DNA of 64,000 bases from an uncultured Ruminococcus sp. (GCA_964487775.1 CAZASH010000002.1:134142-198141); one strand, 5' to 3'. Positions 2,481 to 24,769 are shown, numbered from the stretch's first letter. Made by a program: numbers and translations. The notes: generated by a model not told the origin, from the sequence alone.

Positions 2481-2507
2481 TAAAACAGACGGCGCAAAGG
2501 CCGTCTG
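2481..2507 (-). terminator. Rho-independent terminator after the ZIP transporter gene
   Basis: Hairpin cagacggc/gccgtctg (2486-2507), followed on the minus strand by TTTT. Confidence 0.65.
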
Positions 2508-2509
2508 AC

Positions 2510-3286
2510 TTATCCCAGCACGGTGTCAAGTGTCATCATAAGCGTAAAGCCGAGGGCAAAAAACAGCGTGCCTATGTTCGAGTGCTTGCCTGTCGACATC
2601 TCGGGTATCAATTCCTCGACGACCACATAAAGCATAGCGCCTGCGGCAAAGCTCAAAAAATAAGGCAAAACCGGGGTGACGATCTGCGCCGCACAAACAG
2701 TCAGCGCCGCTCCGACAGGCTCTACCACGCCCGAAAGCACACCGTATGCAAACGCTTTGCTCTTTTTTGTCCCCTCTGCACGAAGCGGCATTGAAATTAT
2801 AGCTCCCTCGGGAAAGTTCTGTATAGCTATGCCGAGCGAAAGTGCCAGTGCGCCTGCCGCAGTTATCTGCGTGCTTCCGCTCACTATTCCCGCATATACC
2901 ACACCGACCGCCATTCCCTCGGGAATGTTGTGCAAAGTCACGGCGAGCAGCATCATCGTTGTGCGGCTGAAAGTGCTGCGCACGCCCTCTGATTGGTCGC
3001 TGTTTTGATGAATATGCGGAATTATGCGGTCAAGCAGCAGCAAAAAGAGTATGCCAAGCCAAAAGCCCGCCACCGCAGGTATAACAGCGCCCTTGCCTCT
3101 TTCGGCTGCCTGCTCCATGGCAGGTATCAGCAGGCTCCATACAGATGCTGCCACCATGACACCTGCGGCAAAGCCTGTCAGCGCACGCTGCAATTGTGTG
3201 CCGAGCGAGCGCTTCATAAAGAATACGCACGCCGACCCGAGCACCGTGCCTAAAAACGGCAGAAGTATTCCGTAAAAAATCGTCAT
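2510..3286 (-). CDS. ZIP family divalent metal (zinc) transporter, ZupT-like
   Basis: 258-aa polytopic protein. It has a His-rich loop (HIHQNSDQSEG) and the HNIPEG..A / QNFPEG motifs typical of ZIP/ZupT. Confidence 0.85.
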   Translation of the reverse strand: MTIFYGILLPFLGTVLGSACVFFMKRSLGTQLQRALTGFAAGVMVAASVWSLLIPAMEQAAERGKGAVIPAVAGFWLGILFLLLLDRIIPHIHQNSDQSEGVRSTFSRTTMMLLAVTLHNIPEGMAVGVVYAGIVSGSTQITAAGALALSLGIAIQNFPEGAIISMPLRAEGTKKSKAFAYGVLSGVVEPVGAALTVCAAQIVTPVLPYFLSFAAGAMLYVVVEELIPEMSTGKHSNIGTLFFALGFTLMMTLDTVLG

Positions 3287-3313
3287 ATAGTTCCTTATCC
3301 TATCTTGTAATCG

Positions 3314-3760
3314 TTATAATATCTGGGTTATCGCGGCGCTCAGCAGAGCCACCGCATAATGCCGCTTCTCGGGCATAAATGAAAAGCGGATGCGCTTTGT
3401 GTTTCGCCACCAAAGCAGGTCGATAATCAGCAGATCAAACAGCCCCAACCCCTCGCCGAGTGCGAGAAAGAACCAAAATGCCGACCAAAAGTCGTTGAGA
3501 CCGAGAAAACCCTTTAAGGCTGCACTCAACACAGAAAATATCACGGTAAACAGCAGCAGATTTCCGAGCAGTATGGATATGATAGATTTCTCTTTCGGTG
3601 CAGTTTTGCCGAAATCCTTGTGTGCTCTCACCGCCTGCTGAACATTATCGGGATAGGAACGAAGTCCCGCAAGATTTTTCTTGTCCGCGCCTGTGCCGAG
3701 GAAGCAGCAGAACCAATAGAAAAGGTAAAATAGAAATGCAGTTGTGATTTTTACAATCAT
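3314..3760 (-). CDS. Uncharacterised membrane protein, paralog B of the tandem pair
   Basis: 148 aa with 3-4 TM segments. It shares YPD/YPP..Q and D..(I/L)D....(N)xKRIR(F/L) motifs with the adjacent 165-aa ORF. Confidence 0.5.
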   Translation of the reverse strand: MIVKITTAFLFYLFYWFCCFLGTGADKKNLAGLRSYPDNVQQAVRAHKDFGKTAPKEKSIISILLGNLLLFTVIFSVLSAALKGFLGLNDFWSAFWFFLALGEGLGLFDLLIIDLLWWRNTKRIRFSFMPEKRHYAVALLSAAITQIL

Positions 3761-3773
3761 CGTTTATTCCCAC

Positions 3774-4271
3774 TTACCAAATCCAAAGCATCAATCCACT
3801 GCTCAAAATACTTGCCAAAAACGCAAAGGGCACCACAGGCAAACAAACCTTAACATGAAACCACTTTTGATGATATTCCTTTTCCATGTGTTCCGTTCCG
3901 GGAAGTCTGATACGCTTAATATTGGCAAACAAAACCCAATCCAAAAAGAAAGTATCCCATGCAAACAAACAGAGCATATAAATCCAAATCAAACCAACGC
4001 CTTGCAAAAAGGTTTTTGCTCCTGCCAAGTGCAACATCCAGGCAAACAAGAATAAAAAAGCAATCACGGCAAGCAACTTTTTTGCAAGCATTAGTTTCGT
4101 CAATTTCTTTTTGGCGGCTTCTCTATGCTGAGAGCGGTAATATTCCGCTTGAATTTCGGGCGGATAGTCACTGATAAAGGTTAGGGGACTTATCAAAAGC
4201 ATACCGAAAACAAGTATACTAAAAATCAGTAGCATTATGCCAATTTCAATTAATATTACTGAAAGAGTCAT
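3774..4271 (-). CDS. Uncharacterised membrane protein, paralog A of the tandem pair
   Basis: 165 aa with 4 TM segments. TAATG overlap with the upstream gene. Shares motifs with 3314-3760. Confidence 0.55.
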   Translation of the reverse strand: MTLSVILIEIGIMLLIFSILVFGMLLISPLTFISDYPPEIQAEYYRSQHREAAKKKLTKLMLAKKLLAVIAFLFLFAWMLHLAGAKTFLQGVGLIWIYMLCLFAWDTFFLDWVLFANIKRIRLPGTEHMEKEYHQKWFHVKVCLPVVPFAFLASILSSGLMLWIW

Positions 4272-4975
4272 TATGTATTTCTCCTAAAGCCTTGTTCATC
4301 CACATATTCGGGATGTTCTTTCAGATATTCGTTCCTGTCCCCGCAGATGGTGTAATCGCACTTGTCCCCGATCGCACATGTGTTCGCCCGTACCAGCTGT
4401 GCGTGGAGCAGTTCCATAGCGGCATAATCTGGATTGCACATGGCGGGCATAACTTCTAATAAACCATGCTGTTTGGCAAATTCCACAATGGGACAGGCTG
4501 TAAATTCGTAATAGATTGGTTTGTCCTTATCATAGGGTGCAACGGACATTTCGTAGTCATGCCATGCGTTGAACTTCTTTTCAGAGGCAGCAAACGAGAA
4601 GTACAAAATGCGCTTCCAAAACGGCTTGTTGCAGTCCACAAAGGTCAGCTTACGAAATGTAGGCAAAAACAGCTCGTTTTCCATTCCTTCGATTTCTCCA
4701 ACGCTTGTCACTGCCTTGCAGACGGTGTAATAACTCATCAAAGCAATACAGTCATAAGTGCCGCCAACGCTGTTGTGGAAATTTTTACTGCCGCCGAGAT
4801 CGGTGCGCCAGTCGGACAGATAGGTAACATATTGCTGCTGTACCACCTCCCAAACTTTTTCCTGCTCCGCTACCGGATAATGCAGAGCAATTTTTGCCTT
4901 GATCTGCTTTTTGCAGGGCTTTGAGTACAGCACATGGCAGGTGCGGTCGAATTGCAGTTCCTCGTCTTTCATCAC
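4271..4975 (-). CDS. L-2-amino-thiazoline-4-carboxylic acid (ATC) hydrolase family protein
   Basis: The C-terminal pattern CP..EFAK.HGL.E.MP..C..DYA..E.L......R..T.A.GDKCDY matches my recollection of the ATC_hydrolase family. ATGA overlap with the upstream MTase. Confidence 0.6.
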   Translation of the reverse strand: MMKDEELQFDRTCHVLYSKPCKKQIKAKIALHYPVAEQEKVWEVVQQQYVTYLSDWRTDLGGSKNFHNSVGGTYDCIALMSYYTVCKAVTSVGEIEGMENELFLPTFRKLTFVDCNKPFWKRILYFSFAASEKKFNAWHDYEMSVAPYDKDKPIYYEFTACPIVEFAKQHGLLEVMPAMCNPDYAAMELLHAQLVRANTCAIGDKCDYTICGDRNEYLKEHPEYVDEQGFRRNT

Positions 4976-5763
4976 TTTCTACCCACCAGCAGTGTCGAGC
5001 CTTGCAGCATCAGGCGACTCGCTTCTTTCTTCGTCATAAACATCCCGTCAGTGGTGTCGATCATGCGAACTTCCGCATAGCCCATTTCATGAAGTTTCTG
5101 GCAGAAAGCCTCCATATCGCCGTAGCGGTTTTTGCCCATGAGGTCGTGGATGGCAAAGGTGCCGCCCTTTTTCAGGGTACGCAGGGTTTCAAGTAAAAGC
5201 TCCTGCTTATCTATGCCTGAAATATTGTGATATACATAATTGCTTGTCACGGCATCGAAGGTTTCGTCGGCAAATGGCAGTTTGGTGGCATCGGCTTTTT
5301 GGAACTCCGTGTTGCTGACCCCTTCCGCTTTGGCATTGCTTTGGCAGAGGGGCAGACTGAACTCCGCATAATCCTTGCCCCAGCGGTCAACACCCACCAT
5401 GCGCCCGCACGGATTTCGCTTGGCGCAGGCAATAGTCAATGCGCCGCTGCCGCAGCCAATATCCAAGCCGACACCGCCGTCGGGCAATTTGACATAGTCG
5501 GCAATACCCTCGATCATCTGCCTTGAGAGCTGCCGCTTGCCGTCATATGAAAAAGCATTGTATGCCGTGATACTCCATTGCAGTGTTTTTCCACAACCGA
5601 TGGTAGCGACGGCAAACACAATGGCAAGGATAATTCGCCATGCTTTTGTTACCCAAAGCCCGCAAGCACCAAACAGTATCAGCGCCGCCAAAGATACCGC
5701 CGTTGCCAACGCCATGCCGACGATCAACATTTTAGGTACCCAGTTTTTGTAATTCGGTTTCAT
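4972..5763 (-). CDS. Membrane-anchored class I SAM-dependent methyltransferase
   Basis: Start moved to MKPNYKNW, which has an AAAGGAG SD and an ATGA overlap with the upstream stop. Two N-terminal TM helices, then motif I GLDIGCGSGALT. Confidence 0.8.
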   Translation of the reverse strand: MKPNYKNWVPKMLIVGMALATAVSLAALILFGACGLWVTKAWRIILAIVFAVATIGCGKTLQWSITAYNAFSYDGKRQLSRQMIEGIADYVKLPDGGVGLDIGCGSGALTIACAKRNPCGRMVGVDRWGKDYAEFSLPLCQSNAKAEGVSNTEFQKADATKLPFADETFDAVTSNYVYHNISGIDKQELLLETLRTLKKGGTFAIHDLMGKNRYGDMEAFCQKLHEMGYAEVRMIDTTDGMFMTKKEASRLMLQGSTLLVGRK

Positions 5764-6371
5764 ATTTTTTCTCCTTTCATGCATTCCGCATAAGTCAGCG
5801 GAAAGCTTGCATTCAGCACTTCGCTTTTCTGTACTTTCCACCCGTGCTTTTGCAGGAAATCCAGATAGCTTTCGCTCGACCATTTGCTGTACTGCCTAAA
5901 GCCTGCAAGCTTCATAAAAAACGCTTTGACATTGCCAAAAAAATCATTGCCTGCGTGGGTGAAGGTGGGGGCGATCAGCACGCCGTCATCTTTAAGCACA
6001 CGGCGAATTTCTGCCAGCGCCTTTTCAGGCTCCGGCACGATGTGCAGAGCGTTTGATACGATCGCTACGTCAAAGGAACTGTCGGCATAGGGCAGATGAA
6101 ACATATCCTGTACGGAAAAATGTAATTTTGAGGAGGAAACGCCTTGTTTTGCCTGCTCAATCATCTCGGATGAAGCATCGGTGGCTTCAATACGGTCAGC
6201 AGAACGGACAATGTGCTTGGCAATCAATCCCGTTCCCGTGGCAAGCTCCAACACCTGCTTATGTTCTACTATGGGACAAATCAGTGCATACATTTGCTCG
6301 TAAGCTTTACGATCTTTTCGCATAAAGCGGTCATAGATTTTTGCCGTGCGATCCCAAAAATTCTTTGCCAT
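5760..6371 (-). CDS. Class I SAM-dependent methyltransferase (soluble)
   Basis: Start moved to MAKNFWDR, which has an AAGGAG SD. Motif I VLELATGTGLIA. Post-I and post-II acidic residues are present. Confidence 0.8.
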   Translation of the reverse strand: MAKNFWDRTAKIYDRFMRKDRKAYEQMYALICPIVEHKQVLELATGTGLIAKHIVRSADRIEATDASSEMIEQAKQGVSSSKLHFSVQDMFHLPYADSSFDVAIVSNALHIVPEPEKALAEIRRVLKDDGVLIAPTFTHAGNDFFGNVKAFFMKLAGFRQYSKWSSESYLDFLQKHGWKVQKSEVLNASFPLTYAECMKGEKI

Positions 6372-6462
6372 AACAACACTCCTTGCACACGAGTTAGCTG
6401 TCGCTAACCTATGCTCTTTATTAAAGCTGCCCTTCTCGGCAGCCACCATTCTTTTCGACCAT

Positions 6463-6492
6463 AATATACTACTCAAACGCCCCCTTTGTCAA
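6463..6492 (-). promoter_or_regulatory. Candidate promoter of the methyltransferase operon, TTGACA-18-TATATT
   Basis: -35 at 6487-6492 and -10 at 6463-6468 on the minus strand. About 90 nt of leader follow, with two short hairpins. Confidence 0.4.
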
Positions 6493-6580
6493 TAGCCTTT
6501 TGCTGAAAAATAGCATTTTCGGCGGAAAATCATTGCATGACAAAAGCCTGCAAATTATTACAAAAACGAATTGATTTTTT

Positions 6581-6613
6581 CTCCGCACTTCATTACAAGG
6601 TGCGGAGTTTTTT
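6581..6613 (+). terminator. Hairpin + T6 (ctccgcac..gtgcggag tttttt) with no upstream plus-strand gene to terminate
   Basis: 8-bp GC-rich stem, 11-nt loop, T6 run. The upstream genes are divergent. Confidence 0.5.
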
Positions 6614-6643
6614 ATGTCTGCGGCGGCAAAATCCTCTGTTCTA

Positions 6644-6671
6644 TTGACTTTTGCGGCAAAAAGAGTATAAT
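6644..6671 (+). promoter_or_regulatory. Promoter TTGACT-16-TATAAT inside repeat copy 1
   Basis: Near-consensus hexamers. It drives the leader to the ORF at 6752. Confidence 0.55.
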
Positions 6672-6751
6672 TATGAGTACGAGGAAGGCAGAATTGTTCG
6701 CGCCACCGATTGAATATTCTTGCTTCGATTTAATCCATTTGGAGGGATATT

Positions 6752-7235
6752 ATGCCAAATAAAACTTATGACATCGATCAATGTACATCATCGCTCAAAT
6801 CCGAAGTAACGATTTTAACTGTTGTTGCCGTTGTTCTTCTCATGCTATTTGCAACTGTACTTGTTTTCTCCATACGGCAGATCAAAAATGATAAATCAAA
6901 AAAAACTACCATATGTTCAAATCATTGCTGCTTTAATAATATTCATTTTTTTATCAGTTTCTTTAGGAGCCCAAATAGCATTTTATTCTAAAGACTTATC
7001 TCAAAATTCTTTTGTGCAATACGAGGGCGTGGCTAAAATACACACGAAAAAGCAACTGATTTTTGGTGGGATCCCTACAGGATACACTGAATATGTGATT
7101 TCGTTTGAATTAGATGGAGAACAAGTTGATCTTTACATGAGGAAGGATCCCGGTTTCGTAGGTGAAGTCGATGATGTCTTTGTTGTTTATGCCAAATATT
7201 CAAAACACATTATCAATTTTGAGATTACACAATAG
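6752..7235 (+). pseudogene. Small membrane protein split by a frame change; one fewer A in the A8 run at 6898-6905 would join the two pieces
   Basis: ORF 6752-6991 has a strong GGAGGG SD and one TM. ORF 6822-7235 is open in the +1 frame across the overlap. Removing one A gives ...SIRQIKNDKSKKLPYVQIIAALIIF... as a continuous ~160-aa two-TM protein. No recognisable family. Confidence 0.4.
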
Positions 7236-7242
7236 GTATTCA

Positions 7243-7275
7243 CTCCGCACTTCATTACAAGGTGCGGAGTTTTTT
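7243..7275 (+). terminator. Rho-independent terminator (identical to 6581-6613)
   Basis: Same hairpin + T6, 8 nt after the stop at 7235. Confidence 0.7.
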
Positions 7276-7305
7276 ATGTCTGCGGCGGCAAAATCCTCTG
7301 TTCTA

Positions 7306-7334
7306 TTGACATTTCGGGCAAAAAAGAGCATAAT
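7306..7334 (+). promoter_or_regulatory. Promoter TTGACA-17-CATAAT inside repeat copy 2
   Basis: Consensus -35 and a 17-nt spacer. About 240 nt of leader lie before the MATE start. Confidence 0.55.
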
Positions 7335-7576
7335 TACGAGTACGAGGAAGTCAGAATTGTCCGTGCCACTGAGATGGATATTGCTCTCTTCGGCGAGGTC
7401 GTAGCTGTTACATCGCACTCTAAAACCGATAAGTTCTTGAGGAAGGTTTTTGATGAACCTGAAGCGGTAACAAGCCGACACGACGAAAAAACGATTTTGT
7501 ATATCCGAACAGGAAAGAAAAGAGTTTCAAAAGCTTCTTCAAAGGCTTTTGAAAACAGAAAGTGGGAATTAATAAA

Positions 7577-8932
7577 ATGCCAGCAGAAGCACAAAAAGAA
7601 AACCGCATGGGAACGACAAAAATGTTCCCCTTAATCATGTCCATGTCATTGCCTGCAATGTTTTCTATGCTTATTCAAGCGCTGTATAACATTGTGGACA
7701 GTTACTTTGTGGCGCAGGTCAGCGACAAAGCGGTGTCGGCGCTGTCGCTTGCCTATCCTATTCAAAACCTGCTGATCGCCTTTGCGGTCGGTACTGCGGC
7801 AGGTGTTACCTCGCTTATTTCGCGACGGCTCGGACAAGGCCGCAGGGAAGAGGCAGAATCAACCGCAACTCACGGCGTTATACTCAGCATCATAACATGG
7901 CTTGCGTTCGCTGTCTTTGGCGCATTTTTCACCACTCCTTTCTTTAGGATGTTTGAGTCCGACCCCGAAATCATCCTCATGGGTGATCAGTATCTCTCTA
8001 TTTGCTGTATCTTTGCGTTTGGACAGTTTGTTGTGACTATGCTTGAAAAGATCCTGCAAGCCACAGGCAATATGTTTTGGCCGATGATGTTTCAGTTGGT
8101 CGGCGCTATAATCAATATCATAGTCGATCCGATCCTGATATTCGGATTGTTTGGCTTTCCGGCTATGGGCGTTACCGGCGCAGCCATTGCCACGGTGGCA
8201 GGGCAGATACTTTCGATGATCTTGGCGATTATTGTGGTCGCACGACACCCATCTATCAAGATTCCTCTCAAGGGCTTCCGCTTTCACGGAGGCATCGTTA
8301 AGGATATTTATGCCGTTGGCATCCCTGCTATTGTTATGCAGGCGATCAGCACGATAATGAATATGGCGATCAACGCCATTCTTGCTGCCTTCTCTACGGC
8401 GGCATACACTGTATTCGGCCTGTATTTCAAGCTGCGCTCTTTTGTGTTTATGCCTGTTTTGGGTCTGAATCAGGGGTTGATGCCGATCATGGGATTCAAT
8501 TATGGTGCTGATAAGAAGAAGCGCCTGCTCCAGTCGTTCTATCAAGGCTGCGGCATTGCACTTGCTATTATGCTGCTCGGTGTGCTTGCCTTTATGCTTT
8601 TGCCAGGGCAGCTTCTCGGATTCTTCAATCCGACAGAAGAGCTCTTGCAGGTCGGCATTCCCGCACTGCGTATCATCAGCCTTTGCTTCCCGCTTGCGGC
8701 TTTGGGATTGGTGTCTTCGAATATGTATCAGGCCATCGGACGAGGCAAGTACAGTCTTGTTATGTCTTTGATGCGTCAGCTTGTGGTTCTTGTGCCTGTG
8801 GCATGGCTGCTGGCAAAGGTGACCAATGATGTCGGCATGGTATGGTGGGCATTCCCTATTGCAGAAGCCATATCGATGGCAGTAAGCGTTGCGTTCTTTG
8901 TGCACTTATATAAAACGGAATTGAAGAAATAA
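7577..8932 (+). CDS. MATE family efflux transporter
   Basis: N-terminal signature MSMSLPAMFSMLIQALYNIVDSYFV, 12 predicted TM segments, ~450 aa. I prefer the ATG at 7577 over the GTG at 7562. Confidence 0.9.
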   Translation: MPAEAQKENRMGTTKMFPLIMSMSLPAMFSMLIQALYNIVDSYFVAQVSDKAVSALSLAYPIQNLLIAFAVGTAAGVTSLISRRLGQGRREEAESTATHGVILSIITWLAFAVFGAFFTTPFFRMFESDPEIILMGDQYLSICCIFAFGQFVVTMLEKILQATGNMFWPMMFQLVGAIINIIVDPILIFGLFGFPAMGVTGAAIATVAGQILSMILAIIVVARHPSIKIPLKGFRFHGGIVKDIYAVGIPAIVMQAISTIMNMAINAILAAFSTAAYTVFGLYFKLRSFVFMPVLGLNQGLMPIMGFNYGADKKKRLLQSFYQGCGIALAIMLLGVLAFMLLPGQLLGFFNPTEELLQVGIPALRIISLCFPLAALGLVSSNMYQAIGRGKYSLVMSLMRQLVVLVPVAWLLAKVTNDVGMVWWAFPIAEAISMAVSVAFFVHLYKTELKK

Positions 8933-9021
8933 AGAAGAGACGGCTTATCTAAATAGATGAGGCGCAGAAAGCTTATGATGAAAACAAAGCCCGAATCTCG
9001 GAAATAGTATAAAACAAAAGC

Positions 9022-9066
9022 AAAAAGAGCTAACTGACTTAATCAAAATCAGTTAGCTCTATTTTT
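9022..9066. terminator. Bidirectional terminator between the convergent MATE and guaA genes
   Basis: Perfect 11-bp stem gagctaactga/tcagttagctc, flanked by A5 and T5 runs. Confidence 0.75.
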
Positions 9067-10193: not shown

Positions 10194-11534
10194 TCACATA
10201 TAACCGTATTTTTTTCGTTTTGCAATTATGAAAATTGATGACATTATAAATGCTCCGAGCTCTGAAATAGGCACTGCCCACCATATGCCTTCGGGGCCTA
10301 TGATCATCGGCAGCAGCAATATTGCCGCAGCCTGAAACACGAGCGTTCTCGAGAACGAGGTTATCGCCGAGATCGCACCGTTGCCAAGCGCCGTAAAGAA
10401 GCCTGAGGCGAAAATATTGAAGCCGACGACGAGATACGAGGTGGAATATATCATAAACGCATCGTGCGTCATCTGGCACAGCTCGGGATTGCTGCCGACA
10501 AAAAGCTTTGACAGCGGCCAGGCAAAGATAAATCCGAACGCGGTCATTGCGAGGCCCGCAAGCCCCATCATTATTTCGCTCTTTTTAAACAGGCTCTTGA
10601 GCTCGGGGGTATCCTCTGCGCCGTAGTGGAAGCCGATTATTGGCGCGCAGCCTGTCGAATAGCCTATGAACGCAGCGATGAAAATAAACTGCACATACAT
10701 CAGAACACCGTATGCAGATACGCCGTCCTGACCGAGATAGGTCATGAGCTGCTTGTTGAACAGCATACCGACCAGCGATGATGAGATATTGCTCATCAGC
10801 TCAGAAGAGCCGTTGGTGCAGGTCTTGAGTATCGGTTTAAACTCGAGCTTTGCGGGTGTGAGGCGCAAAAGGCTGTCGTTTTTGCTGAGGAAATATATCA
10901 GCGGCAATATTCCGCCGAGGCACTGTCCTATGCCCGATGCGAGCGCTGCGCCGAAAAGTCCCATATGAAAGACCGCCATAAACAGCCAGTCGAGCACGGC
11001 ATTCGCGACACCTGCGATTACGGTGAAGGCAAGCCCGAGCTTGGGCTTTTCTGCTACATTCAAAAAGCTCTGAAATACATTCTGCAGCATAAACAGTATT
11101 GCAAACGACATAAGCGTCGTGCCGTATGTTACACACGGCTCGAGCATATCCTCGGTCGCCCCCAAAAGCAACGCCGCAGGACGCATAAAGATTATGCCGA
11201 CCGCAGTCAATATTGCACCCAGGATGATCGTGAATATGACCAGCATCGAGAAATATCTGTTCGCCTTTTGCTTGTCGCCCGTGCCCAGCACCTGCGAAAC
11301 AAGTGCGCTGCCGCCTGCACCTATCATAAAGCCCGTGCCGCTTATAAACATTATGAACGGGAATATGAGGTTGAGCGCGGCGAACTCTGTGTCTGTGCAG
11401 AAGTTCGAAACAAACACGCCGTCGACGACGCTGTATATCGACGTGAATATCACCATTATGATAGACGGATAAACAAATCTCAGCAGTCGCCTGTAATTAA
11501 AATGGTCTGATAGCTTGATAACGTTAGAGGACAT
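10194..11534 (-). CDS. MATE family efflux transporter (second copy, divergent sequence)
   Basis: 446 aa with 12 TM segments and MATE-like repeats (..VDGVFVS.., ..FQSFLNVAEKP..). Confidence 0.85.
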   Translation of the reverse strand: MSSNVIKLSDHFNYRRLLRFVYPSIIMVIFTSIYSVVDGVFVSNFCTDTEFAALNLIFPFIMFISGTGFMIGAGGSALVSQVLGTGDKQKANRYFSMLVIFTIILGAILTAVGIIFMRPAALLLGATEDMLEPCVTYGTTLMSFAILFMLQNVFQSFLNVAEKPKLGLAFTVIAGVANAVLDWLFMAVFHMGLFGAALASGIGQCLGGILPLIYFLSKNDSLLRLTPAKLEFKPILKTCTNGSSELMSNISSSLVGMLFNKQLMTYLGQDGVSAYGVLMYVQFIFIAAFIGYSTGCAPIIGFHYGAEDTPELKSLFKKSEIMMGLAGLAMTAFGFIFAWPLSKLFVGSNPELCQMTHDAFMIYSTSYLVVGFNIFASGFFTALGNGAISAITSFSRTLVFQAAAILLLPMIIGPEGIWWAVPISELGAFIMSSIFIIAKRKKYGYM

Positions 11535-19316: not shown

Positions 19317-20312
19317 TTAATTGGTTTTGTATGTCGGCCATACACGCGGCACAAACAGGCTCTCGTAGGTCGAGATGGCATATCTGTCTGTCATGCTTGC
19401 GAGATGGTCGCAGACGGCTCTTTCGGCGCCGTCGGACTCTATGATGCCCTTTAATTCGTCGGGCAATTTGTCTATGTGAGAAATGTAATATTCAAACAGG
19501 CTCTGCATCAGACCAAGCACCTTTGCATCCTCGCTCCGTGCATCTCTGTGACCATAGACACGTTCGAACATAAACGCTCTCAGGTCCATCATTGCCTGTC
19601 CCTCGGGCTCTGTCATGCCTATCTCGCCGCCGAGGACTCCGTTTTTGATGACGGCGGTGACCATCGAGGTTATGCGCTCGCTGTGCGTGTTGCCGAGAAT
19701 ATCGCATATGTCGCGGGGAATGTCGTCTTTGTCGAGCAGTCCCGCACGAACGGCATCGTCGATGTCGTGATTGAGATAGGCTATGCGGTCGGCGTATTTT
19801 ATAAGCTGTCCCTCGAGCGTGCACGCTTTGTTGCTGCCCGAGTGGTTGACTATGCCGTCACGCACCTCATAGGTAAGGTTGAGCGCCTCTATTTTGTCGA
19901 CGACTCTGAGGCTCTGCTCGTAATGCTTAAATCCGCAGGGCATTATCTCATCGAGCGCCCTCTCGCCGGAATGTCCGAACGGAGTATGCCCGAGGTCGTG
20001 TCCGAGCGCTGCCGCCTCGGTGAGGTCCTCGTTGAGACACATCGCTCTCGCCAGTGTGCGCGCTATCTGCGTCACCTCGAGCGTGTGAGTCAGTCTTGTG
20101 CGGTAGTGGTCCCCCTCGGGAGAGATAAACACCTGCATCTTGTTCATCAGTCGCCTGAATGCCTTGCAATGCGTTATGCGGTCGCGGTCACGCTGAAAAT
20201 CGGTGCGCACGGGGCAGTCGCCTATCGGGTGCAGTCTGCCTTTGGTATCGGCGGTGTGAAATGCCTGCGGACACAGATAAGAGCGCTCGCGCTCGAGAGT
20301 TACGTTTTTCAT
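19317..20312 (-). CDS. dgt: dGTP triphosphohydrolase-like HD-domain protein
   Basis: Start moved to MKNVTLERER (TAATG overlap with the upstream stop). HD motif HDLGHTPFGH. 331 aa. Confidence 0.85.
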   Translation of the reverse strand: MKNVTLERERSYLCPQAFHTADTKGRLHPIGDCPVRTDFQRDRDRITHCKAFRRLMNKMQVFISPEGDHYRTRLTHTLEVTQIARTLARAMCLNEDLTEAAALGHDLGHTPFGHSGERALDEIMPCGFKHYEQSLRVVDKIEALNLTYEVRDGIVNHSGSNKACTLEGQLIKYADRIAYLNHDIDDAVRAGLLDKDDIPRDICDILGNTHSERITSMVTAVIKNGVLGGEIGMTEPEGQAMMDLRAFMFERVYGHRDARSEDAKVLGLMQSLFEYYISHIDKLPDELKGIIESDGAERAVCDHLASMTDRYAISTYESLFVPRVWPTYKTN

Positions 20313-21973
20313 TATTTTATGTCCCTCCGTTTGAATGAGGATATTGCGCAGTACAGCCAGAGTGCGGTAAGCAGTATGCACACGATAAGTCCGTATGCGA
20401 TGCTTGTGCCTGATGTCGAGACTATCGACAACTGATCGAATATATCGCCGTAATACGACGAGCAGATAAGACCTGCATCGGTGTGCTCCCAAAGCGCCGT
20501 GTATGTCAAGGGGAAAAATTTGCATATCTTAGCGCCGAACAGGAAGCTGACTATCAGCGAGGACACTGTCGAAAATACTGTCGATGCTATGCCGATGAGC
20601 ATTCCTGCCATGGCGTTGCGTGTCAGTGTCGCCATCAGCATGGCGAGCGTGCCGAGCATTATCGCCGAAACACAGCTGCACAGAAATTCAAACAGCAGAT
20701 ATACAGGATATGCTATCGCCGTGATATTGCCGAATATGCTGACAGGCACAGGGACAAAAAAGTCGCCGATGCCTGTTATCAGCAGGCTTCCGACAGTATA
20801 AGCGACAAAGCACACCGAATAGACCGACATCACCGCAATGACAGAGGCGACGAACTTGCTTTGCATTATCCTTGCTCTGCTGACAGGTCTGATGACCAGC
20901 ATGTTTATCGTCTTTGCCGAAAACTCGCTTGCTATGGCAGTGCTGAAGATTATCAGCGCAAATATGTACAGCAGCGAGAAATTGCCAAAGAAGCCCGATG
21001 CGGCATTGCGTGCATCGCCCATCGACGAGTCGTATATGCCGTGCTCGAGGCAGTACCTGCCTGCCGCAAGCTGCTTGTGGTAATTGTCAAACCTTGCCTC
21101 GCAGTCGCTGAGGTATTGCTCATATCCGCCGAGTGACAGCGGCATCGCAGTGGATGCATATTGCGATTCGCTGTAAATATCATCGGCTTCGTATTTGTGA
21201 TTGTTATAGAAATCAAATATGCCGTTTGCCTGCTTAGATAATGGGTCGTTAAAGTCGAGATCGTTTTGAATGATATATTCGCAGGCGTATATGACAGACT
21301 CATACAGGTCCTTGTTGAGTGCGTATGAGAGCGCTTCTGCCCTTGAGAGCTCGCCTATCGATGCATATTGCTTTTCGAACGACTCGTATTCTTTTTTAAA
21401 GCCTGCCAGCTTGCCTGCGATATAGTCCGAATATTTTGCCGTGTCCAGCCATTGTCTGCATTCGTCGTAGAGCCTTGCGTTCTCTGAATGCATCGAATAA
21501 TCTTCGTTCATTAGTCCGAGATAGCCTGTCAGAAAGTTGGCATATTCTTTGCCGTTCTCGATCTGGTCGACTATGACCTTTGAAAAGGCGGTGCTCCAGA
21601 CCTCGTCAGAAAATCTGCTGTATCGCCAGTCGTTGTGATCGATGATCCCTATGCTGTCGGCATATCTTAATGCTTCGGCATACGCAAGGCTTTCGAGTAT
21701 CACGAGCCCTTCGGGAACTCTGGAACTTTTGTAGTCAAAAAAGTAGACACTGTAGCCAGAATAGCCGTTGGCGATGGCGTTTGCGTTGTCGATATAGCTT
21801 TGTGCCGTTTCCGCCGTAGTCTGTGTATCTGCCAGGCTCATGCTGAGTGCGGTGGTTGCAAGGCTAAGCAGAGTGGCGGCTATAAGCAGTGCCGCAAGCA
21901 CAGTGTTCAGCTTGCGTGCACGTAATTTGATAAGCTCGTTTTTTAAGAGCGTTGATAATTTTGCTGTTTTCAT
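20312..21973 (-). CDS. ABC-2 type transporter permease with a large (~300 aa) extracytoplasmic N-terminal domain
   Basis: N-terminal TM, long soluble segment, then a C-terminal 5-6 TM block beginning FSAKTINMLVIRPVSRARIMQSKF (ABC-2 style). Its RBS and ATG lie inside 50-bp repeat copy 1. Confidence 0.7.
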   Translation of the reverse strand: MKTAKLSTLLKNELIKLRARKLNTVLAALLIAATLLSLATTALSMSLADTQTTAETAQSYIDNANAIANGYSGYSVYFFDYKSSRVPEGLVILESLAYAEALRYADSIGIIDHNDWRYSRFSDEVWSTAFSKVIVDQIENGKEYANFLTGYLGLMNEDYSMHSENARLYDECRQWLDTAKYSDYIAGKLAGFKKEYESFEKQYASIGELSRAEALSYALNKDLYESVIYACEYIIQNDLDFNDPLSKQANGIFDFYNNHKYEADDIYSESQYASTAMPLSLGGYEQYLSDCEARFDNYHKQLAAGRYCLEHGIYDSSMGDARNAASGFFGNFSLLYIFALIIFSTAIASEFSAKTINMLVIRPVSRARIMQSKFVASVIAVMSVYSVCFVAYTVGSLLITGIGDFFVPVPVSIFGNITAIAYPVYLLFEFLCSCVSAIMLGTLAMLMATLTRNAMAGMLIGIASTVFSTVSSLIVSFLFGAKICKFFPLTYTALWEHTDAGLICSSYYGDIFDQLSIVSTSGTSIAYGLIVCILLTALWLYCAISSFKRRDIK

Positions 21974-22016
21974 TTGTCACCTCTTTATGATATCTGCTGT
22001 GGAGCAGAGTGGGTGA
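21967..22016 (-). repeat. 50-bp perfect direct repeat, copy 1 (orphan ATPase 3' end + RBS + ATG of the permease)
   Basis: Identical to 23719-23768. It encodes ..ITHSAPQQIS* AGAGGTGACAA ATGAAAA on the minus strand. Confidence 0.95.
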
Positions 22017-22025
22017 ATAGAATGC

Positions 22026-22971
22026 TTAACTTGGTAGTTGCATTGTTGTTGTGGATGTATAAATTGGGCTTTCTCCGTTTTTAAATGCGGCTTGGCTTGG
22101 AAATATTTCAAGTTTGATTACACATTCGCAATTTGATGTATATGACGTGGTTGTTTTATAGTACTGTCCTACTGCCATGTCAGGCGTGGCAAAGTCAAGA
22201 GATACGACAATAGAAAGTGCTTCCGCAACCTTTAATGACACCTGTGCTATTTTGTTTAAAGTATTCGTTGGTGTAAAAAACAATACAATGCTCGGAATGG
22301 CAACAGTTACTTTTTGCAAAGTAATGTCAGATTGCGTTATTGTTTGATACGTGACCTTTGTTGCAAAAGGACGGTCGAACAGCGTCGAATAGTGCTTGTG
22401 CTCGTTGTAGTTTCTGGCTACGATAGTAGCTGAAACAGTAATGCCACAAATGAATCCTTTCGTTTCTATGGTTATTGTATGCACTCCTTTTTTCTGCCAG
22501 ACATGTTTAGCATTGTGCCTTGGGTTCTGCAAGCAGATGGATACTCATATCCAAGTTTAAAATCAAAATAGGATGTAACAGGAATATCGCCCTTTACATT
22601 AACAACTATAGTTAACATATGATCGGTTGTTATCGATGCGGAAGTTACAGATATGTAATTGTCTATTAATGTAGAGCTGGTTTGAATCGATTGCAATGAA
22701 ACGCCTGAATTTTCGTTAGCAATATTTTGGCTTTTAGAGGTACGTTCTAATAATTCAAAAAAACAGCGTTAACATTTTTGGAGTTTTCCACTGTGTGCGA
22801 CAACGCATATAGTTCATCTAAAGAGCACGATCTTAAGAATTCATCTGTCAAAATACATTCTGTGCTTTCAGCGTTGACGAGAATGTTGATTGAGTTTATA
22901 GATACTGCGAACAACAAGGCTATCGATAACGCAAGACTAATGGTGCTTTTAATTAGTTTTAGGTGTTTCAT
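22026..22971 (-). pseudogene. Secreted protein of unknown family present as three ORF fragments; +1 in the T7 run (22757-22763) and +1 in the A6 run (22488-22493) would rejoin them
   Basis: Fragment 1 (22747-22971) has a signal peptide, MKHLKLIKSTISLALSIALLFAVS. Fragments 2 and 3 lack ATG starts. Each downstream frame opens only a few codons before the run. Restored product is ~315 aa. Confidence 0.4.
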
Positions 22972-23013
22972 GGAATTTCCTTTCTGATTTGCTCTTTAAT
23001 TATTAAATAAACA

Positions 23014-23725
23014 TCATTCATCGATTTTGATGGTGACATTATCTGTGTATATGCACATTGCGGTCACGATGTCATCGCTGACTAATGCAAATGTATAAAT
23101 ATGATTATCCTTGAAAAAGAAGCCTGTATTTGTTGCTGTATTGAATTGGGAGTTATAATTGCGAGACAAATACGAGAGTATTTCTAAAGCAAAGATGTTT
23201 CTGACGCATTTCGATGCATTGATTTTTATGGAGTAGAAAGCATTATTATCGTTCGCCAGAAACTGATCTACTGTGGTTATTGATGCGCCTAAATACGGAG
23301 AAAAAGAGCGCACTAAAACGGTGTCTTGATCGCTTTCTACAACATAATCAGAACGCACAACATCGGATGCTCTTATTATGTTTAAATTGCTTGGAATGCT
23401 CTCATATGCAGTGTAACAAGACGAATTATAATCGAGTACAATAAGAACCGCGATTGCCAAAAGTGCGATAAATAGCGCAATATAAAAAGATGCTTTAAGC
23501 ACCGCTTTTGCATTAATTTTAACGATAAAAAGGTTGTATGCGAATGCCATAGCGAATTCAAGTGCCAAAATCCAGTATATAATCGCTTGCTTGAATAGGA
23601 TATTGCATATTGCAAGCCCCCCCTTGTAATGCTTTTATAATTGAAATAATGGCTAACAATAAATAGATATATCGTATCGCCAAATTAAGAATGGTGCTGT
23701 TTGTATCATTCTTTTCATTTTTCAT
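23014..23725 (-). pseudogene. Polytopic membrane protein of unknown family, interrupted at a G7 run (23617-23623)
   Basis: ATG at 23725 uses the duplicated permease RBS and start (MKNEKNDTNSTILNLAIRYIYLLLAIISIIKALQGG). That frame stops at codon 56. With G6 it reads through into the 184-aa ORF 23014-23568 (..LAICNILFKQAIIYWILALEFAMAF..). Confidence 0.45.
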
Positions 23726-23768
23726 TTGTCACCTCTTTATGATATCTGCTGTGGAGCAGAGTGGGTGA
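23719..23768 (-). repeat. 50-bp perfect direct repeat, copy 2 (authentic ATPase 3' end + RBS + ATG now opening the cassette)
   Basis: Identical to 21967-22016. Confidence 0.95.
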
Positions 23769-24651
23769 TCTCGAGATATGCATCCTCGAGCGTGGGCTCT
23801 GACGAGGTCAGCGAATAGACCTCTATGCCTGCCAGCACCAGCTCGCGGTTTATTGCCGCAGCGGCAGGCTTGGGCAATATGCAGGTGACGAAATTGCTGT
23901 CGGCGCTCGCCGTGGGATCATGCCTTTTGATAAGCTCGAGCGCCTTTTGTGTGTCAGAGACCTCGAGCCTGTGGGCACGTGGCTGAGCAGGATCTGCAAG
24001 TGTAAATTCCTCGATCGATCTGGTGGCTATTATCTCGCCTCGCTCGATTATGCAGACTCTGTTGCACATAAGCTGCAGCTCGGGCAATTGATGCGACGAG
24101 ACCAGCACCGCACAGCCCGAGAGGGCGCACGAGCGCAAAATATCACGCAGCTCTTTTATGCCTGCAGGGTCGAGTCCGTTGGTCGGCTCGTCGAGTATCA
24201 AAAGCTTTGGCGATGCCAAAAGCGCCTGTGCTATGCCGAGGCGCTGCCTCATGCCGAGCGAATAGCCCTTGACCTTTTCGTCAAGCCTGCCCGAAAGCCT
24301 GACCATGTCGGCGACTGCCGCAACACGGTCATCCGAAACGCCGTATATCCGTGCGAACTGCATAAGATTTTCACGCCCTGTGAGGTAAGAATAGAGGTCG
24401 GGGCTCTCGACTATCGCTCCGACGCTTTCGAGTGCGAGCTCGTGCTCGTCGCAGATGTCGTGTCCGCATATTCTGACCTTGCCGCTGTCTGCCTTGAGCA
24501 AGCCGAGTATTATCTTTATGCACGTCGTCTTGCCTGCGCCGTTAGGACCGAGAAACCCGGTTATATCGCCTTCGCCGACATTGAAGCTGACATTATTAAG
24601 CACTCTGCGAGCGCCGAAATTCTTGCTGACACCGCTGACTTCGAGAACCAT
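23737..24651 (-). CDS. ABC transporter ATP-binding protein
   Basis: Start moved to MVLEVSGVSKNF (GGAGGTG SD). Walker A GPNGAGKTT, signature YSLGMRQRL, Walker B LLILDEPTNGLD. Confidence 0.9.
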   Translation of the reverse strand: MVLEVSGVSKNFGARRVLNNVSFNVGEGDITGFLGPNGAGKTTCIKIILGLLKADSGKVRICGHDICDEHELALESVGAIVESPDLYSYLTGRENLMQFARIYGVSDDRVAAVADMVRLSGRLDEKVKGYSLGMRQRLGIAQALLASPKLLILDEPTNGLDPAGIKELRDILRSCALSGCAVLVSSHQLPELQLMCNRVCIIERGEIIATRSIEEFTLADPAQPRAHRLEVSDTQKALELIKRHDPTASADSNFVTCILPKPAAAAINRELVLAGIEVYSLTSSEPTLEDAYLEITHSAPQQIS

Positions 24652-24769
24652 TTTTGCACCTCCATGTTTTTTTACATACATATATACGCACCCAAAACGC
24701 AAAAACCCTCTTTTTTCGGCTGCAAAAATTCAAAAAAATCTCTTGCGGGCATATTTTTTGCGTAATTGC

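What the first reader, a model, noticed from the sequence alone, without database searches (positions are those of the whole stretch)
6581..7371. Direct repeat of ~128 bp (terminator hairpin + promoter + leader) brackets a second AT-rich mini-cassette upstream of a MATE gene
Seen in the sequence:
- 6581-6648 is identical to 7243-7310 (68/68 nt). The similarity continues at about 85% for another ~60 nt.
- Each copy contains, in order, a strong hairpin + T6 (ctccgcac..gtgcggag tttttt), a near-consensus promoter (TTGACT-16-TATAAT in copy 1, TTGACA-17-CATAAT in copy 2), and a conserved transcribed leader (GAGTACGAGGAAG.CAGAATTGT.CG.GCCAC.GA).
- The repeat period is 662 bp. The unique part is very AT-rich and holds one small, frame-broken membrane-protein gene.
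- The copy-1 hairpin has nothing to terminate, because the upstream genes are divergent. This argues that the whole module was duplicated as a unit.

Inference: the cassette captured, or was inserted with, a duplicate of the MATE gene's terminator-promoter-leader. This matches the design principle of the cassette at 21967-23768. The divergence of the 3' part versus the perfect 5' 68 nt may mark a recombination boundary.
Basis: partly seen in the sequence, partly recalled or inferred. Interest (0 to 1): 0.65.

Follow-up and report, generated by a model that had tools for sequence, protein, structure and literature searches.

The report
Decayed RHS toxin-immunity array upstream of MATE
The two ~130-bp repeats are successive junctions of a broken-down array of RHS toxin/immunity cassettes, a known kind of bacterial warfare locus; the array has replaced the MarR repressor gene that normally sits in front of this MATE efflux-pump gene.

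Summary
6581-6648 equals 7243-7310 (68/68), and similarity continues at about 84% to 6709/7372. Both copies carry a stable hairpin+T6 and a near-consensus promoter.

The module is not the MATE gene's own regulatory region.
- In most relatives a marR gene lies directly upstream of MATE. Window 7501-7569 is its 3' remnant.
- The "promoter + leader" is decayed RHS (YD-repeat) coding sequence: SIDISGKKEYNYEYEEGRIVRATE. TTGACA corresponds to codons I-D-I and TATAAT to Y-N.
- The AT-rich insert is the last 8 codons of an RHS toxin plus its immunity gene, a 160-aa two-TM protein frameshifted at an A8 run.
- In metagenome contigs the same immunity gene sits 19 nt after an intact 595-aa RHS toxin and is followed by the same hairpin and RHS fragment.

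The family hairpin closes cassettes in several RHS arrays. The RHS-embedded TTGACA-17-TATAAT survives in many decayed copies while its flanks are deleted, so it is probably a real promoter.

Probable present function (inferred, not shown): P1 drives the broken orphan immunity gene, and P2 drives MATE without MarR.

A sister species has a single module and no cassette. This is a new member of a known kind, of moderate interest.

The parts
6553..6574 (+). 3' remnant (..I-T-K-T-N, TGA at 6572-6574) of a deleted immunity gene ('immunity A') that originally ended at hairpin 1
   Evidence: 88-90% DNA match to L090:9871-9932. That stretch is the end of the 286-aa gene that follows the main RHS gene and precedes the family hairpin. 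L163 and L123 match similarly.
6581..6613 (+). Hairpin 1 (CTCCGCACTT/AAGGTGCGGAG) + T6: intrinsic-terminator-like cassette-end element
   Evidence: Terminator scan. Fold -15.5 kcal/mol, z -4.65. The same hairpin family closes cassettes in L045, L051, L090, L110 and L127.
6614..6709 (+). RHS (YD-repeat) core remnant 1, carrying promoter P1 (-35 TTGACT 6644-6649, -10 TATAAT 6666-6671). It ends at the deletion junction 6709/6710, where about 1.76 kb of toxin gene has been removed.
   Evidence: tblastn 6657-6710 = QKEYNYEYEEGRIVRATD against RHS KKEYNYEYEEGRIVRATE. Promoter scan. Junction located by comparison with L045:1674 and 3437/3438.
6710..6733 (+). Last 8 codons (LNILASI, stop) of the RHS C-terminal toxin gene
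   Evidence: 6710-6751 is identical to L045:3438-3479, the end of the 595-aa RHS protein ...ENFLNILASI*.
6752..7235 (+). Orphan immunity gene. It is the homologue of a 160-aa two-TM protein and is a pseudogene through a +1 frameshift in A8 (6898-6905). RBS GGAGGG at 6743-6748.
   Evidence: P0001 is 94% identical, 160 aa, intact with A7. P0001 lies 19 nt downstream of the RHS toxin in L045-L050. No Pfam or NCBIfam family.
7243..7275 (+). Hairpin 2 + T6: terminator of the immunity gene
   Evidence: -17.1 kcal/mol, z -4.59. Homologous position in L045:3984.
7276..7473 (+). RHS core remnant 2, carrying promoter P2 (-35 TTGACA 7306-7311, -10 CATAAT 7329-7334). Frame-broken, with a deletion of about 50 codons at about 7406/7407.
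   Evidence: tblastn E 6e-15: FYVCGG--KILCSIDISGKKEHNYEYEEVRIVRATEMDIALFGEVVA / VTSHSKTDKFLRKVFDE. DNA matches to L134 and L090 reach 7473.
7501..7575 (+). 3' remnant of marR (ISEQERKEFQKLLQRLLKTESGN, then two stop codons)
   Evidence: tblastn with L005 MarR, E 1e-6. Alignment with 10 relatives that have intact marR abutting MATE. MarR Pfam hit for the L005 protein.
7577..8932 (+). MATE efflux transporter gene, now downstream of P2 with no terminator in between
   Evidence: Pfam MatE 1.6e-58. No + strand terminator between 7276 and 7577.

Best explanation
The region 6553-7575 is the decayed remnant of an array of RHS (YD-repeat) polymorphic-toxin 'orphan' cassettes. In the common ancestor of this organism and its sister species (L002), the array displaced most of the marR gene that normally precedes this MATE gene.

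In intact arrays of this family each cassette has four parts, in order:
- a 5'-truncated RHS core fragment
- a variable C-terminal toxin
- the cognate immunity gene
- a conserved GC-rich terminator hairpin

The RHS core contains, in frame, TTGACA-17-TATAAT (codons S-I-D-I ... E-Y-N-Y). The two ~130-bp repeats are two successive cassette junctions, each made of a hairpin plus the start of the next RHS fragment.

In unit 1 the toxin has been deleted between RHS codon ..RATE and the last 8 toxin codons. This leaves P1, a 74-nt 5'UTR and the immunity gene, which is now frameshifted. Unit 2 retains only about 200 nt of RHS fragment, fused to the last 23 codons of marR.

The perfect 68 nt result from gene conversion or recombination between the two junctions. 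Both copies and L002 share the same 7-nt deletion and substitutions.

Inferred function today: hairpin 2 insulates, P1 transcribes a dead orphan immunity gene, and P2 is the promoter of the MATE gene, which has lost MarR control.
For: Shown:
- Window 6710-7403 aligns at 91% with L045:3438-4151, which is toxin end, immunity gene, hairpin and RHS fragment. In L045 and L046 the sequence after the hairpin reads in frame FFYVYDGDGNFVRSIDISGKKEYNYEYEEGRIVRATE... and continues as a full RHS fragment.
- The upstream 595-aa protein is RHS: Pfam RHS_repeat, NCBIfam Rhs_assc_core 64.5 bits and YD_repeat_2x.
- tblastn of the RHS fragment against the window gives E 6e-15 for copy 2 and matches copy 1 as well. 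The marR remnant gives E 1e-6.
- Ten relatives have marR abutting MATE.
- L090 is a canonical locus: main RHS of about 2,400 aa, immunity gene, family hairpin, orphan RHS-CT, immunity gene. L127 and L051 are arrays with 3 and 4 hairpin+promoter junctions.
- Full-length RHS proteins read ..IAHYKYVYDGKGNIVRSID.., so the hairpin is not RHS coding. RHS entry points after the hairpin vary.
- L002 has a single module preceded by a different immunity-gene remnant, 85% identical to L070 and L143.

Evidence that the promoter is real:
- The hexamers are perfect in 13 distinct in-frame copies. Their 4 synonymous sites never vary, whereas about half of the neighbouring Y/N/D/I codons do.
- The hexamers are retained in decayed copies whose flanks are deleted or full of stop codons: L045a, L051 x4, L060, L076, L123, L154, L163.
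Against: - No transcription data exist. P1 and P2 activity, and P2 driving MATE, are inferences.
- The immunity function rests on gene position only. The protein has no known family, and 55%-identical homologues also occur alone between acetyltransferase genes with no RHS nearby.
- No full RHS gene is present in the 64-kb window.
- The order of events (array insertion, toxin deletion, conversion) cannot be reconstructed uniquely. L002's module is a mosaic of copy-1-like and copy-2-like sites, yet its upstream flank differs.
- The synonymous-site test rests on few sequences, and they are related to each other.
Confidence: 0.85

Rival explanations
1. The module is the MATE gene's native terminator-promoter-leader, and it was duplicated when a small AT-rich cassette was captured or inserted.
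For: A direct repeat brackets the cassette. A relative has one module and no cassette.
Against: - MATE's ancestral upstream partner is marR in 10 relatives, and its remnant is still present at 7501-7569.
- The module is RHS-derived and occurs in about 30 unrelated contigs next to RHS fragments, never with MATE except in this lineage.
- Cassette plus downstream module is a contiguous unit in RHS loci L045-L050 and L110.
Confidence: 0.03
2. An integron-like system. The conserved hairpin is a recombination site (attC-like) for a site-specific recombinase that inserts and excises promoter-bearing cassettes. The repeat marks two such sites.
For: - The same hairpin lies between non-homologous immunity genes and variable RHS entry points.
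- The window/L002 homology breakpoint falls inside the hairpin loop at 7259.
- Compact hairpin-promoter junctions repeat 3-4 times in L051 and L127.
Against: - No recombinase lies within about 8 kb in the window or in the arrays examined.
- The cassettes carry long RHS homology, which suffices for the homologous recombination documented for Rhs orphans (PMC3967940).
- The stem CTCCGCAC/GTGCGGAG is also a common generic terminator elsewhere.
- The T-run fits a terminator.
Confidence: 0.08
3. A neutral relic only. The hexamers are a by-product of YD-repeat codons (IDI, YNY) with no promoter activity. MATE is transcribed from another start, and the repeat has no present function.
For: - The hexamers are fully explained by conserved amino acids in coding copies.
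- The immunity gene is already a pseudogene.
- A weak TTGAAA-18-TAAAAT exists at 7549-7578.
Against: - The hexamers persist in many non-coding, deletion-riddled copies, where deletions repeatedly stop at the hexamer edges.
- The synonymous sites in the hexamers are invariant.
- With marR and its promoter gone, P2 is the only strong + strand promoter within 1.2 kb of MATE, because hairpin 2 blocks P1. The 7549 site overlaps the start codon.
Confidence: 0.2

Closest known systems
Rhs/YD-repeat polymorphic toxin loci with 'orphan' rhs-CT/rhsI modules (Enterobacteriaceae; Koskiniemi et al. 2014, PMC3967940; Zhang et al. 2012, PMC3482391)
   Same: - 5'-truncated RHS core fragments, each followed by a variable C-terminal toxin and an adjacent immunity gene, arrayed downstream of a main rhs gene (L090, L045, L127).
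- Shared core homology between units.
- Decay to orphan immunity genes.
   Different: - The host is an uncultured gut Clostridia lineage; the nearest named relatives of the MATE gene are Acutalibacter and Neglectibacter at about 70%.
- Every cassette ends in one conserved terminator hairpin.
- The RHS core carries a consensus sigma-70-type promoter in frame. Classical orphans are described as lacking expression signals.
- In the window only relics remain: no toxin and no main rhs gene.
Orphan immunity genes and immunity-gene arrays (acquired interbacterial defence islands of Bacteroidales; T6SS immunity arrays of Vibrio cholerae, PMC5361080; T7SS immunity strings in Firmicutes, PMC9484751)
   Same: An immunity gene is retained without its toxin. 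Arrays evolve by recombination between repeated junctions.
   Different: The orphan here is a single, frameshifted gene. No recombinase is associated. The junction is RHS-derived.
marR-regulated efflux operons in which loss of the repressor de-represses the pump (established knowledge; not tested here)
   Same: In most relatives marR lies directly upstream of the pump gene. In this lineage marR is destroyed and a strong promoter is placed in front of the pump.
   Different: The replacement promoter comes from a toxin gene fragment. No phenotype data exist.

Membership tests
RHS/YD-repeat polymorphic toxin orphan cassette | Sequence homology of the unit to YD-repeat / RHS core coding sequence | tested here: met
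   tblastn E 6e-15 for 7272-7547, and 6657-6710 matches too. The homologous intact genes hit Pfam RHS_repeat and NCBIfam Rhs_assc_core and YD_repeat_2x above their cut-offs.
RHS/YD-repeat polymorphic toxin orphan cassette | Variable C-terminal toxin after the core-end motif, with the immunity gene immediately downstream | tested here: inconclusive
   Met in the homologous loci. L046 has core end ..RYYDANVGRFINIDT, then about 180 aa of CT, then a 160-aa gene 19 nt later. In the window only the last 8 toxin codons and the frameshifted immunity gene survive.
RHS/YD-repeat polymorphic toxin orphan cassette | A full-length main rhs gene in the same locus | tested here: not met
   There is no other RHS similarity in the 64-kb window. 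A main gene is present in related array L090. The window element is therefore a relic, not a working locus.
RHS/YD-repeat polymorphic toxin orphan cassette | The immunity protein neutralises the cognate toxin | not testable with these tools
   Supported only by gene position. The protein belongs to no family in Pfam or NCBIfam.
Integron-type gene cassette | An integrase gene adjacent to the array, and promoterless cassettes ending in attC | tested here: not met
   No recombinase lies within about 8 kb. The cassettes carry their own promoter. The hairpin is followed by a T-run, as in a terminator.
Structured cis-regulatory leader (riboswitch or attenuator) of MATE | A match to a known RNA family, or unusual and conserved structure | tested here: not met
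   No Rfam hit at gathering score, and only noise at E<10. The 5'UTR fold has z -0.68. The sequence is explained as RHS and marR coding relics.
marR-MATE operon (ancestral state of this locus) | An intact MarR-family gene directly upstream of MATE | tested here: not met
   Only the last 23 codons remain, at 7501-7569. The gene is intact in L003-L009, L014, L017 and L037.

The most novel reading that the evidence does not exclude
In this family of gut-Clostridia RHS loci the core gene carries a selected in-frame sigma-70 promoter, and every cassette ends in one conserved terminator hairpin. Each orphan toxin/immunity cassette is therefore an autonomous, insulated transcription unit.

Decay repeatedly trims the junction to a compact terminator-promoter module of about 75 nt, as in L051, L127 and L163. 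Such a module can be co-opted by neighbouring host genes. Here it replaces MarR control of a MATE efflux pump, which may give constitutive efflux.

A further possibility, which the evidence does not exclude, is that the hairpin itself is a preferred recombination site.
Probability: 0.35. Interest if true: 0.6.

Novelty: new member of a known kind. Interest (0 to 1): 0.4.

Why it matters
- It turns an apparent promoter-duplication cassette into a recognisable relic of interbacterial warfare genes, so the region should be annotated as pseudogenic RHS, immunity and marR remnants.
- It documents RHS orphan arrays in poorly known gut Clostridia.
- It shows that toxin-gene debris can supply a consensus promoter to a drug-efflux gene that has lost its repressor. 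This is testable and may bear on intrinsic drug tolerance.
- It offers a simple case for studying promoters embedded in coding repeats.

Tried and rejected
- **Rfam:** the whole window at gathering score, and 6300-7800 at E<10, gave nothing credible.
- **Leader fold:** the 249-nt 5'UTR is unremarkable.
- **Leader-peptide idea:** the ATG at 6675 is ACG in copy 2, so no conserved small ORF exists.
- **ORF 7374-7634** as a real small protein: rejected, because it is an RHS relic read into the marR remnant and MATE start.
- **Metagenome scan for the decayed 31-mer:** 0 hits.
- **Hairpin-only scan:** Filtering was needed.
- **Exact-protein look-ups** of MATE and the methyltransferase found only the same strain's contig.
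- **Simple Campbell-type insertion model:** not fully consistent, because copy 2's 5' part is the resident decayed type rather than donor type.
- **L002 as a simple deletion derivative between the two repeats:** its mosaic module fits, but its upstream flank is a different immunity remnant.
- **Microhomology at the toxin deletion junction 6709/6710:** none convincing.

Full report
**1. Observation**

The repeat is real.
- 6581-6648 is identical to 7243-7310. There are only two copies in the window and none in 100 shuffles.
- Similarity continues with a 1-nt indel at 84% to 6709/7372, and the period is 662 bp.
- Each copy has a stable hairpin followed by T6, at -15.5 and -17.1 kcal/mol with z about -4.6.
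- Each copy has a near-consensus promoter: TTGACT-16-TATAAT at 6644-6671 and TTGACA-17-CATAAT at 7306-7334.
- The unique part has 30-39% GC.
- Two independent metagenome assemblies, L001 and L177, show the same structure base for base apart from one SNP. It is therefore not an assembly artefact.

**2. The small gene**

Joining ORF 6752-6991 to ORF 6888-7235 across the A8 run (6898-6905) gives a 160-aa protein with two TM segments.
- Intact 160-aa homologues exist. P0001 is 94% identical and has A7.
- The protein has no Pfam or NCBIfam family.
- In six contigs (L045-L050) P0001 lies 19 nt downstream of a 595-aa protein.
- That protein hits Pfam RHS_repeat, and NCBIfam Rhs_assc_core (64.5 bits, cut-off 32.5) and YD_repeat_2x. 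After the core end it has a hydrophobic, Lys-rich C-terminal domain of about 180 aa.

This is the standard toxin/immunity arrangement. The immunity role is inferred from gene position only.

**3. What the repeat is made of**

Window 6710-7403 aligns at 91% with L045:3438-4151.
- 6710-6733 is the last eight codons of the toxin (LNILASI, stop).
- The immunity gene follows, then the hairpin.
- After the hairpin comes sequence that in L045 and L046 is an open reading frame: FFYVYDGDGNFVRSIDISGKKEYNYEYEEGRIVRATEADIELNGEIV...YYYDTEGKMTKK. It continues for more than 400 codons as the next RHS fragment.
- TTGACA corresponds to codons (S)IDI and TATAAT to (E)YNY. The 'leader' GAGTACGAGGAAGGCAGAAT encodes EYEEGRI.

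tblastn of that fragment against the window gives two results:
- E 6e-15 for copy 2 and its extension, 7272-7547. This copy is frame-broken and has a gap of about 50 codons at about 7406.
- A match to copy 1: 6657-6710 reads QKEYNYEYEEGRIVRATD.

In copy 1 the RHS remnant runs straight into the last toxin codons at 6709/6710. About 1.76 kb of RHS-CT (L045:1674-3437) has been deleted there. This places P1 about 80 nt upstream of the immunity start codon, which has RBS GGAGGG at 6743-6748.

Left of hairpin 1, 6553-6574 is the 3' end (..ITKTN, TGA) of another immunity gene. It is 88-90% identical to the end of the 286-aa gene that precedes the same hairpin in L090. Hairpin 1 therefore once had a gene to terminate.

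**4. The MATE gene's true neighbour**

Among 43 related loci, L003-L009, L014, L017 and L037 (MATE 88-92% identical) have a MarR-family gene ending a few bases before the MATE ATG.
- Window 7501-7569 is its last 23 codons: ISEQERKEFQKLLQRLLKTESGN, E 1e-6.
- The 235-nt 'leader' of MATE is therefore an RHS relic plus a marR relic.
- It has no Rfam match and no unusual fold, z -0.68.
- L002 (MATE 94% identical) shares the same RHS relic, the same internal deletions and the same marR breakpoint. The array therefore invaded before the two species split.

**5. Family context**

A scan for the hairpin returned many generic terminators. It also returned about 30 instances of the specific hairpin CTCCGCACTTCxTTxxGAGGTGCGGAG-T5 next to RHS sequence.
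- L090 is a canonical locus: main RHS (1059 + 1366 aa), a 286-aa gene, the hairpin, a 740-aa orphan RHS-CT, a 142-aa gene, then lexA.
- L127 has three hairpin+promoter junctions separating RHS-CT/immunity cassettes. L051 has four, separating small genes without Pfam families, with only a short RHS fragment after the first hairpin.
- Full-length RHS proteins read ..TDIAHYKYVYDGKGNIVRSID.. at this point. The hairpin is therefore not RHS coding sequence.
- After the T-run, RHS homology starts at no fewer than four different points.
- The inner stem covaries between copies.

**6. Is the promoter real?**

In the full-length RHS gene of L090 the hexamers sit in frame.
- In 13 distinct in-frame copies TTGAC and TATAAT are invariant, including their four synonymous sites. 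About half of the neighbouring Tyr, Asn, Asp and Ile codons vary. This is suggestive only, because the sample is small and the sequences are related.
- Stronger evidence comes from decayed, non-coding copies. There the hexamers and their spacing persist while the flanks are deleted up to their edges or filled with stop codons. Examples are L045a, L051 x4 (T-run then ATTGACA-18-TATCAT), L060, L076, L123, L154 and L163.

I therefore take P1 and P2 as probably functional. This is inference; no expression data exist.

**7. History of the two copies**

Both window copies and L002 share a 7-nt deletion and a set of substitutions in the first 68 nt relative to intact RHS. The perfect identity therefore reflects conversion or recombination between junctions, not independent decay (0/68 versus 10/61 differences, p = 4e-4).

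Downstream, the informative sites form a mosaic.
- Copy 1 keeps intact-like states: TATAATTAT and GAAGGCAGAAT.
- Copy 2 and L002 share derived states: CATAATTAC and GTCCGTGCC.
- L002 shares TTGACT and TTTTG.GGC with copy 1.

L002 lacks the cassette. It has 380 bp in place of window 2489-7258, and that stretch is 85% identical to an immunity-gene end preceding the family hairpin in L070 and L143. The window/L002 homology resumes inside the hairpin at 7259.

The data fit repeated homologous exchange among array junctions. A unique order of events cannot be derived.

**8. Mechanism today (inferred)**

- P1 (6644-6671) transcribes a 74-nt UTR and the frameshifted immunity gene, ending at hairpin 2.
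- P2 (7306-7334) transcribes through the relics into MATE. No + strand terminator intervenes. marR and its promoter are gone, which implies expression free of MarR.
- No recombinase lies within about 8 kb. The neighbours are GSIII, a ZIP transporter, methyltransferases, guaA and tRNA synthetases.

**9. Comparison with known systems**

This matches Rhs orphan toxin/immunity modules. These are defined as displaced rhs fragments with some core sequence, a CT toxin and an immunity gene, and they recombine through shared homology (PMC3967940; PMC3482391). It also matches orphan immunity genes.

It differs in three ways:
- the host lineage
- the uniform terminator hairpin
- the embedded consensus promoter

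In the window it is a relic lacking both the toxin and a main rhs gene.

The second cassette at 21960-23768 is a different design.

**Verdict**

This is a new member of a known kind, of moderate interest.

Noticed in passing
window 21960-22016 and 23712-23768: A 57-nt direct repeat (95%) brackets 1.75 kb of AT-rich small genes with no known family, inserted between an ABC ATPase gene (23737-24702, -) and its ABC-2 permease gene (20312-21973, -). The repeat is the operon junction itself: ATPase 3' end ..HSAPQQIS*, the RBS and the permease ATG. It is not a terminator-promoter, so the design differs from that of the MATE locus.
   Followed up: partly
window 3366-8941 versus L177:2889-8464: A second strain carries this 5.6-kb block (membrane protein, ATC-hydrolase-like gene, two methyltransferases, RHS relic, MATE). 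Its core (3866-8600) is almost identical. Both flanks are different: AraC-type regulator on the left and a Lactamase_B gene abutting MATE on the right. Divergence is piled up at the block edges. This suggests recent transfer or recombination of the whole block.
   Followed up: partly
L016:5880-6000: An independent truncation of marR in another relative (MATE 88% identical). A perfect TTGACA-17-TATAAT sits right at the breakpoint, in front of the last ~25 marR codons, with no RHS hairpin. Loss of MarR with gain of a strong promoter may be recurrent at this pump gene.
   Followed up: partly
window 2489-6550 versus L002:5303-5337: About 4 kb of minus-strand genes lies between the glutamine synthetase III gene and the RHS relic in the window. 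The genes are a ZIP transporter, two small membrane proteins, an ATC-hydrolase-like protein and two class-I methyltransferases. All are absent from the sister species L002.
   Followed up: partly
L127:3331, 5049, 7477: A second type of compact junction: hairpin-T6-G-TTGACC-17-TATAAT with TGG upstream. It appears to be built from other RHS codons (..LT.. and ..YN.. of the LTWEKGRQL...YTYNANGIRTSK region) brought together by deletion. If so, a promoter arose independently right after the terminator.
   Followed up: no
L052-L055 (gene at L052:5001-5477): 55%-identical homologues of the 160-aa protein occur as single genes between two GNAT acetyltransferase genes, with no RHS sequence or family hairpin nearby. 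They may be further orphan immunity genes, or the family may have another role.
   Followed up: no
window 10194-11534 (-): A second MATE-family gene, 24% identical to the first, lies 1.3 kb downstream in convergent orientation. Between them are a guaA fragment (325 aa, PP-loop plus GMP_synt_C only) and a bidirectional terminator at 9026-9060.
   Followed up: no
window 7519-7548: A perfect 10-bp inverted repeat, TTTCAAAAGC-N10-GCTTTTGAAA. It lies inside the marR 3' remnant and is conserved as coding sequence (QKLLQKLL) in marR-bearing relatives. It is probably a coding coincidence rather than an operator.
   Followed up: partly
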